A stretch of DNA of 64,000 bases from a bacterium (GTDB lineage Bacteria; Sysuimicrobiota; Sysuimicrobiia; Sysuimicrobiales; Segetimicrobiaceae). The notes below the pieces were generated by a model. It was given only the letters and a program-made list of their open reading frames with translations, had not been told where the DNA came from and did no database searches. Made by a program: the position numbers and the translations under genes. Of the stretch, positions 22,646 through 26,127 are shown in pieces; the stretch's first letter is position 1, and each line of letters starts with the position of its first letter. The stretch lies in assembly GCA_035945995.1 (NCBI GenBank), contig DASYZR010000166.1:4855-68854 (forward strand). Reading direction: 5' to 3'.

Positions 22646-26127
<3,482 letters not shown>

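What the first reader, a model, noticed from the sequence alone, without database searches (positions are those of the whole stretch)
25855..25875. +1 frameshift at a C7 homopolymer inside the maltokinase domain of treS-mak
Frame 1 (TreS plus the maltokinase catalytic core) reads ...[11 protein letters not shown], then nonsense until a stop at 26031. Frame 2 carries the conserved maltokinase C-terminus (ELQAQLRT...[20 protein letters not shown]) and ends in an ATGA overlap with treZ. Deleting one C from the CCCCCCC run at about 25862-25868 restores one continuous 1160-aa ORF. This is either an assembly or sequencing error at a homopolymer, or a genuine slippage-prone tract or inactivating mutation.
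Basis: seen in the sequence. Interest (0 to 1): 0.5.

Follow-up and report, generated by a model that had tools for sequence, protein, structure and literature searches.

The report
One-base frameshift breaking a maltokinase gene
A run of seven C's puts the last 87 codons of an otherwise normal trehalose-synthase/maltokinase gene out of frame; this is an ordinary one-off homopolymer slip (real mutation or miscount), not a designed recoding signal.

Summary
C7 lies at 25862-25868. Upstream, frame 1 encodes TreS plus most of the maltokinase (Mak). Downstream, frame 2 encodes the last 87 Mak residues and ends in an ATGA overlap with treZ. Removing one C, or adding two, gives one ORF of 1162 or 1163 aa starting at GTG 22642.

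The break falls in a variable loop between two helices. It cuts off three core helices and the Lys/Tyr/Tyr residues that maltose phosphorylation needs. As written, the gene makes TreS fused to a dead kinase.

Nothing suggests programmed recoding. All 81 related loci are uninterrupted and none has a long run at this site. There is no slow A-site codon and no unusual RNA structure. C7/G7 runs are depleted in the window.

The out-of-frame part shows no extra divergence, so the change is recent or not real.

The window matches a GenBank third-party soil MAG contig. GenBank annotates the two pieces as HEV2359803.1 and a 50-aa "hypothetical protein" HEV2359804.1. The MAG is probably a short-read MEGAHIT assembly, and no other run in the 64 kb breaks a frame.

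I therefore lean towards a real, recent slippage allele (about 0.6) over a miscount (about 0.28). Only reads can settle it. Interest is low.

The parts
20627..22645 (+). glgE (alpha-1,4-glucan:maltose-1-phosphate maltosyltransferase), intact. Its TGA overlaps the treS-mak GTG start as GTGA.
   Evidence: Pfam GlgE_dom_N_S and GLGE_C. The exact 672-aa product equals GenBank HEV2359802.1. The overlap was read.
22642..26031 (+). Frame-1 CDS as it stands, 1129 aa: the TreS domain, Mak up to the break, then 54 out-of-frame codons and TAA.
   Evidence: Translation. The exact product equals GenBank HEV2359803.1, 'maltose alpha-D-glucosyltransferase', a singleton cluster.
22792..24399 (+). Trehalose synthase (TreS, GH13) domain, complete.
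   Evidence: TIGR02456 treS_nterm at 911.7 bits (cutoff 678), profile 2-538 of 539. Pfam Alpha-amylase and Malt_amylase_C.
24433..25857 (+). Maltokinase domain, N-terminal five-sixths in frame 1: cap domain, P-loop EQSNTS, catalytic HGDYHLGQ and the DFEGEP motif.
   Evidence: TIGR02457 profile positions 2-443 of 529. Pfam Mak_N_cap. PDB Mak chains 5jy7, 4u94 and 4o7o.
25862..25868 (+). C7 homopolymer, the site of the frame change. Frame 1 reads GCC GCC CCC CCG CGC.
   Evidence: The GC3 frame switch is at 25853/25854. The homology switch lies between ADQAA (frame 1) and ELQ (frame 2).
25868..26131 (+). Maltokinase C-terminus in frame 2 (87 codons plus TGA). It forms three helices of the C-lobe and holds all 15 family-invariant residues of this part.
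   Evidence: TIGR02457 positions 447-528, E 2.5e-16. Invariant columns W492...G553. AlphaFold helices 479-508, 517-542 and 548-557 with mean pLDDT of at least 89 in every 10-residue block spanning them.
26030..26053 (+). Codons for Lys (26030), Tyr (26039) and Tyr (26051) of the maltose pocket. They are encoded only in frame 2.
   Evidence: They align to K413, Y416 and Y420 of M. vanbaalenii Mak. Mutating those residues practically abolishes activity (PMC4306142).
25979..26131 (+). 50-aa ORF that GenBank calls 'hypothetical protein VGZ23_19615'. It is really the orphaned end of Mak.
   Evidence: Exact look-up gives HEV2359804.1.
26128..27981 (+). treZ (malto-oligosyltrehalose trehalohydrolase), intact. 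Its start overlaps the frame-2 Mak stop (ATGA) and its stop overlaps the pdxA GTG (GTGA).
   Evidence: TIGR02402 at 708.5 bits (cutoff 538.8). Exact products equal HEV2359805.1 and HEV2359806.1.

Best explanation
This is an ordinary GlgE-pathway operon: GH57/TrkA_C gene, glgE, treS-mak, treZ, pdxA. In the sampled soil population, the treS-mak fusion carries a recent, unprogrammed length change in a coding poly-C run. Most simply C6 became C7; C9 to C7 is also possible. The cause would be slipped-strand mispairing during replication.

Translation in frame 1 yields an intact TreS domain fused to a Mak domain that stops being Mak after residue about 1074. It lacks the last three helices of the kinase C-lobe and the Lys/Tyr/Tyr maltose-binding residues, and carries a 54-residue nonsense tail instead. 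The inferred consequences are that trehalose is still converted to maltose but maltose-1-phosphate is no longer made from this gene, and that termination 97 nt before treZ breaks the ATGA translational coupling. A small amount of full-length protein could still arise from spontaneous +1 slippage of tRNA-Pro on CCC-C.

Shown here: the anatomy, the loss of essential residues, the absence of the feature in relatives, and the lack of decay. Inferred: that the allele exists in the DNA rather than only in the assembly, and the physiological effect.
For: Anatomy and break point.

Essential parts lie downstream of the break. AlphaFold model pLDDT is 92, and the shift lies in loop 475-478 between helices 452-474 and 479-508. 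Foldseek's best match is Mak 4u94, TM 0.85. K413/Y416/Y420 mutants are inactive (PMC4306142), and those residues map to 26030-26053.

The change is recent. The post-shift segment is 69% and 67% identical to L001 and L002, the same as the two intact orthologues are to each other (68%). All 15 invariant residues are kept. The ATGA overlap is kept.

Evidence for a real allele rather than a miscount:
- Exact look-ups match the window's proteins to a 71.5-kb contig of a GenBank 'MAG TPA: bacterium'.
- Its nearest genome relatives are SMAG soil MAGs with MEGAHIT k141 contig names. That catalogue was built from short paired-end reads (150-bp Illumina for the authors' own samples) assembled with MEGAHIT (PMC10640626).
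- Independent Logan assemblies of SRR12347821 and SRR12347816 are 100% and 99.97% identical to the window over 3.5 and 2.9 kb.
- None of the other 7 runs of 7 nt or more breaks a frame, and the frame scans show no break at any of the 23 six-nt C/G runs either. The assembly is therefore not prone to homopolymer errors. By contrast, the related MAG L004, whose MFD naming I take to mean a long-read Microflora Danica assembly (not checked), has 2 frame breaks in about 7 kb.
- The same genome carries real gene-disrupting variation. A truncated methyltransferase gives an identical product on 13 independent contigs. A 132-nt indel is polymorphic between populations.
Against: No reads were available, and no conspecific contig covering 25862 could be retrieved. 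The tract length is therefore supported by this one assembly only.

The sequencing platform of the source MAG is inferred, not shown. The region is very GC-rich, and other assemblies of this species break at GC-rich stretches. Local coverage may have been low, which makes a consensus error less improbable.

A perfectly preserved downstream frame and an intact operon are equally what an artefact would give.
Confidence: 0.6

Rival explanations
1. Sequencing or assembly miscount. The organism has C6 (or C9) and an intact 1162/1163-aa TreS-Mak, and the extra C exists only in the consensus.
For: The break sits exactly in one of the longest homopolymers of the window. Everything else about the gene and the operon is intact and conserved. 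All 81 related loci are uninterrupted. Homopolymer indels are the dominant error of long-read data, accounting for 92% of PacBio CCS errors and gene-fragmenting frameshifts in nanopore assemblies (PMC12007338). The region is GC-rich, and other assemblies of this species fail at GC-rich spots.
Against: The source looks like a short-read MEGAHIT MAG. From general knowledge of Illumina error profiles, a 7-nt run is rarely miscounted in such a consensus. The other 7 runs of 7 nt or more are all in frame, and the frame scans show no break at any of the 23 six-nt runs. Nanopore errors at long runs are mostly deletions, whereas C6 to C7 would be an insertion.
Confidence: 0.28
2. Phase-variable (contingency) switch. 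The C tract toggles Mak ON (C6/C9) and OFF (C7/C8) reversibly in the population. This would gate trehalose to maltose-1-phosphate flux, as the 7C tract of glpK does for glycerol kinase in M. tuberculosis.
For: A 7C coding tract is enough for reversible frameshifting in M. tuberculosis glpK (bioRxiv 10.1101/717272), and homopolymer phase variants are widespread in that complex (PMC10334774). Mak makes a metabolite described as highly toxic (PMC4306142). Loss of mak is viable and has phenotypes in M. tuberculosis (PMC13232130). The downstream frame is fully preserved, as expected if the OFF state is transient.
Against: No length polymorphism was observed, because none could be looked for. No relative has a run of 7 or more here; the longest run within 240 nt is 6. 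C7/G7 runs are depleted in the window, 9 observed against 22.4 expected, which argues against selection for mutable tracts. Two other C7 runs lie in glgE and treS-mak (22003, 24922), so such tracts arise by codon usage alone. mak, treS and glgE are not mentioned in the main text of the M. tuberculosis phase-variation survey.
Confidence: 0.08
3. Programmed recoding. Either a +1 ribosomal frameshift on CCC-C or transcriptional slippage on the C run makes full-length TreS-Mak from the C7 gene by design.
For: In frame 1 the tract reads CCC CCG. A tRNA-Pro slipping +1 on CCC-C would continue CGC GCG TCG and give exactly the repaired protein (sequence). Proline CCC-N codons are known +1-slippery sites restrained by m1G37 and EF-P (PMC7577736).
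Against: The site is not conserved: 81 of 81 related loci encode Mak in one frame and none has the tract. There is no stop or rare codon in the A site; CCG is 67% of proline codons. In-frame CCC-C occurs 26 times in about 7600 codons of ordinary genes. The 100 nt downstream fold no better than shuffles (z 0.36). I saw no convincing Shine-Dalgarno-like stimulator. From general knowledge, transcriptional slippage is documented mainly for long A/T runs.
Confidence: 0.03

Closest known systems
TreS-Mak fusion proteins of the GlgE alpha-glucan pathway (NCBIfam TIGR02456 + TIGR02457; separate TreS and Mak/Pep2 in mycobacteria, PDB 4u94, 4o7o, 5jy7)
   Same: Same domain order, catalytic motifs (EQSNTS P-loop, [14 protein letters not shown], LDKAxYExxYE), predicted fold and operon context (glgE upstream, treZ downstream)..
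   Different: The reading frame is interrupted 87 codons before the end. The encoded product as it stands lacks the maltose-binding helices.
Homopolymer-tract frameshift alleles in high-GC bacteria, e.g. the 7C tract of M. tuberculosis glpK
   Same: Same tract composition and length (7 C) inside a sugar or polyol kinase gene. The same mechanism is available (slipped-strand mispairing) with the same consequence, a truncated kinase..
   Different: In glpK, 7C is the in-frame ON state and reversibility and phenotype were demonstrated. Here 7C is the OFF state, and neither polymorphism nor reversion has been observed.
Gene-fragmenting homopolymer indel errors in assemblies
   Same: One-base length difference in a homopolymer splits one gene into two annotated CDS, with perfect conservation on both sides. 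In the related MAG L004, glgE and treZ each match in two pieces in different frames.
   Different: Such errors normally come in numbers in long-read assemblies. Here there is a single case in 64 kb of what appears to be a short-read assembly.
Programmed +1 frameshifting (prfB/RF2 type)
   Same: The direction of the shift is +1, and a P-site codon can re-pair in the +1 frame (CCC-C).
   Different: No conservation, no A-site stop or hungry codon, and no Shine-Dalgarno stimulator at the proper spacing.

Membership tests
TreS-Mak fusion (TIGR02456 treS_nterm + TIGR02457 TreS_Cterm) | Score above the curated cutoff for both domain models | tested here: met
   treS_nterm scores 911.7 bits against a cutoff of 678.35. 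TreS_Cterm scores 383.6 (as is) and 455.9 (repaired) against a cutoff of 375.05.
TreS-Mak fusion (TIGR02456 treS_nterm + TIGR02457 TreS_Cterm) | Full-length coverage of the maltokinase model in one reading frame | tested here: not met
   Frame 1 covers profile positions 2-443 and frame 2 covers 447-528.
Maltokinase (Mak/Pep2) fold and active site | ELK kinase fold with N-terminal cap. Catalytic Asp (HGD loop), DFE Mg site, and the Lys/Tyr/Tyr maltose pocket. | tested here: met
AlphaFold pLDDT is 92 and Foldseek matches 4u94 at E 1e-26, TM 0.85. Motifs are present. K/Y/Y are present but only in frame 2.
Programmed +1 ribosomal frameshift site | Shift site and two-frame arrangement conserved among orthologues | tested here: not met
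   81 of 81 related loci give a single continuous Mak match, and none has the tract.
Programmed +1 ribosomal frameshift site | Slow A-site codon (stop or rare) and/or a stimulatory element next to the slippery codon | tested here: not met
   The A-site codon CCG is the commonest proline codon at 67%. The downstream fold has z 0.36.
Phase-variable contingency locus | Mutable repeat tract inside the coding region or promoter | tested here: met
   C7 at 25862-25868 lies inside the CDS.
Phase-variable contingency locus | Tract-length polymorphism within or between populations, with ON and OFF lengths both observed | not testable with these tools
   No reads were available. No conspecific contig covers the tract: Logan and ENA contigs L082-L105 stop short of it. 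Pattern scans of JGI metagenomes gave 0 hits.
Phase-variable contingency locus | Tract maintained by selection (conserved in relatives, or tracts enriched in the genome) | tested here: not met
   The tract is absent from all 81 relatives. C7/G7 runs are depleted, 9 against 22.4 expected.
Assembly homopolymer error | Other homopolymer-linked frame breaks in the same assembly | tested here: not met
   The codon-position GC segmentation and the ORF-tail scan of all 64 kb find no other. G7 at 41398 and G8 at 59411 are in frame. The only other broken gene, at 43711-44125, is not at a homopolymer and is reproduced in 13 independent contigs.
Assembly homopolymer error | Reads disagree with the consensus tract length | not testable with these tools
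   There is no read access.

The most novel reading that the evidence does not exclude
The C tract is a reversible ON/OFF switch of maltokinase in an uncultured soil bacterium. It would let subpopulations shut off production of toxic maltose-1-phosphate and of trehalose-derived alpha-glucan. That would be a free-living, environmental counterpart of the 7C glpK drug-tolerance switch of M. tuberculosis.
Probability: 0.08. Interest if true: 0.5.

Novelty: new member of a known kind. Interest (0 to 1): 0.13.

Why it matters
It matters little beyond annotation hygiene. The public record presents the truncated fusion as a normal "maltose alpha-D-glucosyltransferase" and the orphaned kinase end as a 50-aa hypothetical protein. 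Pathway reconstructions for this MAG should either treat Mak as disrupted or merge the two CDS.

If read data showed mixed C6/C7 lengths, it would become a modestly interesting case. It would then be homopolymer phase variation controlling storage-glucan metabolism in an environmental bacterium.

Tried and rejected
Searches for conspecific DNA across the tract, so that tract lengths could be compared, all failed:
- Two degenerate exact-pattern scans of JGI metagenome contigs found nothing.
- The GTDB genome scan found only relatives of 72% Mak-domain identity or less.
- Exact-protein look-ups did find the same species in Logan and ENA assemblies, at 99.4-100% nt identity. Every contig stops short of 25862. 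Those to the right of the tract all begin at about 27595-27598 or about 27835 inside treZ. L102 ends 60 nt after glgE. L101 is a 90-95% relative that ends in TreS.
- Ten guessed partial PdxA and TreZ products of neighbouring contigs were not in the collection.
- The repaired C6 and C9 proteins are not in the collection either.

The third protein search, a junction-centred query, returned only hits of 50-58% identity. It did not even return the 70% hits of the first search, so its prefilter makes it uninformative.

Rejected ideas:
- An old pseudogene. There is no excess divergence.
- A compensating second shift. Frame 2 runs to the natural stop.
- A second frameshift at G7 41398. The DUF488 domain is complete and in frame.
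- An 8-nt deletion instead of +1C. The window is 8 nt shorter than L001 in this loop. However, the loop length after C6 repair (29 residues) is within the family range of 27-35, and the coincidence with the C run favours slippage.
- A second Mak copy in the window. There is none.
- Rfam and tRNA scans of the window were empty.

Full report
**What is in the sequence**

Positions 25862-25868 are CCCCCCC. The long frame-1 ORF starts at GTG 22642, which overlaps the TGA of the upstream glgE as GTGA. It encodes a complete trehalose synthase domain: TIGR02456 scores 911.7 bits and covers profile 2-538 of 539. This is followed by a maltokinase domain that matches TIGR02457 only up to profile position 443 of 529.

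After ...[12 protein letters not shown], frame 1 has no homology and stops at TAA 26029-26031. Frame 2, from the tract onward, matches TIGR02457 positions 447-528 (E 2.5e-16). It ends at TGA 26129-26131, overlapping the ATG of treZ as ATGA.

Removing one C gives a 1162-aa protein that matches the kinase model end to end at 455.9 bits. Adding two C's gives 1163 aa and restores the frame as well.

A two-strand, codon-position GC model independently places the change of coding frame at 25853/25854. The window has only eight C/G runs of 7 nt or more, fewer than the 22.4 matches expected from shuffles (9 observed, since the G8 run counts twice). A run lying by chance inside the roughly 19-nt interval where the indel must be has a probability of about 0.003.

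**What the break does to the protein**

Aligned with 16 homologues, the break falls in a loop of variable length between conserved blocks. After C6 repair the loop is 29 residues, inside the family range of 27-35.

I built an AlphaFold model of the repaired kinase domain from 48 aligned sequences (pLDDT 92, pTM 0.91). It puts the break in loop 475-478, between helix 452-474 and helix 479-508. Three confident helices (479-508, 517-542, 548-557) lie after it. The model's best structural match is mycobacterial maltokinase 4u94 (E 1e-26, TM 0.85), and sequence alignments to 5jy7, 4u94 and 4o7o run to the ends of those chains.

Fifteen of the 67 invariant columns of the family lie after the break. 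They include the LDKAxYExxYE motif. Its Lys and two Tyr correspond to K413, Y416 and Y420 of M. vanbaalenii Mak, whose mutation practically abolishes activity (PMC4306142). In the window they are at 26030, 26039 and 26051, readable only in frame 2.

As written, the gene therefore encodes TreS fused to an inactive kinase stump. There is no second Mak in the window.

**Context**

The gene sits in an operon: GH57/TrkA_C protein, glgE, treS-mak, treZ, pdxA. Consecutive genes overlap start to stop as GTGA, ATGA and GTGA. The same gene order occurs in the closest genome found, L001 (a soil MAG), at 91, 80, 82, 72 and 73% amino-acid identity. All the other genes are intact.

**Is it a designed feature?**

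No evidence says so.
- All 81 related loci fetched encode the kinase domain as one continuous match.
- None has a run longer than 6 in the 240 nt after DFEGEP, and the closest relatives have none at the homologous spot.
- The A-site codon after the potentially slippery CCC is CCG, the commonest proline codon at 67%. In-frame CCC-C occurs 26 times in about 7600 ordinary codons.
- The 100 nt downstream fold no better than shuffles (z 0.36).

CCC-N is a known spontaneous +1 slippery site (PMC7577736). A trace of full-length protein is therefore conceivable, but that is leakiness, not programming.

Phase variation at a 7C tract is established for M. tuberculosis glpK (10.1101/717272). Here nothing beyond the tract itself supports it, and homopolymers are depleted rather than enriched.

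**How old is it?**

The out-of-frame segment is 69% and 67% identical to L001 and L002. The two intact orthologues are 68% identical to each other over the same segment. The corresponding upstream figures are 79%, 75% and 80%. All invariant residues and the ATGA overlap are retained. The change is either very recent or not present in the organism.

**Real or artefact?**

Exact-sequence look-ups match the window's proteins to a 71,544-nt contig of a GenBank "MAG TPA: bacterium" with locus tags VGZ23_*.
- The frame-1 product is HEV2359803.1, "maltose alpha-D-glucosyltransferase".
- A 50-aa piece of the orphaned C-terminus, starting at GTG 25979, is HEV2359804.1, "hypothetical protein".
- TreZ is HEV2359805.1.

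The nearest genomes are SMAG soil MAGs with MEGAHIT k141 contig names. That catalogue was assembled from short paired-end reads with MEGAHIT, the authors' own samples being 150-bp Illumina reads (PMC10640626). Independent Logan assemblies of SRR12347821 and SRR12347816 reproduce other parts of the window at 100% and 99.97% identity.

The 64 kb contain 31 C/G runs of 6 nt or more. Only this one breaks a frame. G7 at 41398 sits in a complete, in-frame DUF488 gene. By contrast, in the related MAG L004 both glgE and treZ match in two pieces in different frames within about 7 kb. Its MFD naming suggests a long-read Microflora Danica assembly, though I did not check this.

The genome also carries demonstrably real disruptions. 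A methyltransferase remnant gives an 89-aa product that is identical on 13 independent contigs. A 132-nt indel between 9-nt direct repeats differs between populations.

These points tilt me towards a real allele (about 0.6, plus about 0.08 for the phase-variable version) over a miscount (about 0.28). The platform is inferred, and the region is GC-rich. Other assemblies of this species break at a very GC-rich stretch inside treZ (27595-27598). I could not retrieve a single independent contig across the tract despite many attempts.

**Verdict**

This is a correct observation of an ordinary thing: a one-base homopolymer length change interrupting a standard treS-mak gene. It is not conserved and not programmed. 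It is either a recent loss-of-function allele in a soil population or a consensus error. Its practical consequence is a mis-annotation in the public record. Read pile-ups from the named SRA runs would settle it in minutes.

Noticed in passing
window 43711-44125 (+): Remnant of a class-I SAM methyltransferase. The N-terminal part with motif I (LLDLACGNGYLAR) is in frame 1, and its 89-aa product equals GenBank VGZ23_19695. The C-terminal part is in frame 2. About 90 central residues are missing compared with homologues of 190-240 aa. There is no homopolymer at the junction (about 43866-43880). The identical 89-aa product is called on 13 contigs of independent Logan and ENA assemblies, so it is a real, fixed truncation.
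   Followed up: partly
window 29165-29296, inside the cNMP-binding gene 29077-29709 (-): A 132-nt in-frame segment bounded by 9-nt direct repeats GCCGCCGCG. It is present in the window and in SRR1234782x contigs (L103-L105). It is absent from all SRR256608xx contigs (L092-L100). This is a deletion/insertion polymorphism between near-identical populations.
   Followed up: partly
window 27560-27598 (inside treZ); loci L092-L100, L105: Eight of the ten Logan contigs fetched across pdxA start at 27595-27598, next to the very GC-rich GCGCGCGGCCACGCGCGCGAGCCGCGCC; the other two start at about 27835. Three contigs begin with a spurious poly-C run, which I take to be the poly-G artefact of two-colour chemistry. 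This points to GC-dependent coverage loss in these data sets.
   Followed up: partly
window 25979-26131 and 22642-26031: GenBank annotates the two halves of the broken gene as ordinary proteins, HEV2359803.1 and the 50-aa hypothetical HEV2359804.1. Both look-ups return them as named proteins.
   Followed up: yes
window 22642-22645, 26128-26131, 27978-27981: Three consecutive start/stop overlaps link glgE, treS-mak, treZ and pdxA: GTGA, ATGA, GTGA. They suggest translational coupling along the operon. The frameshift would uncouple treZ.
   Followed up: partly
window 18475-20580 (+): A 701-aa protein with a partial GH57 match at the N-terminus and a TrkA_C domain at the C-terminus heads the operon. 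At 91% identity to L001 it is much better conserved than its neighbours (72-82%). Its 90%-identity cluster has 33 members from many soil MAGs.
   Followed up: no
window about 29300-31200: A stretch with GC of 60-63%, against 70.6% for the whole window, and no codon-position GC signal. It is flanked by two cNMP-binding/Crp-type genes. The ORFs inside have no Pfam match.
   Followed up: no
locus L004 about 2361-2374 and about 7638-7651: In this related MAG, glgE and treZ each match in two pieces in different frames, with only short G runs (3-4 nt) at the junctions. They look like typical long-read indel errors; the MFD naming suggests a long-read Microflora Danica MAG, but I did not check the platform. 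They served as a contrast to the window.
   Followed up: partly
whole window: Runs of seven C or G are less than half as frequent as in dinucleotide-preserving shuffles: 9 matches against a mean of 22.4, and all 100 shuffles had at least 9. Three of the runs lie in glgE and treS-mak, at 22003, 24922 and 25862.
   Followed up: partly
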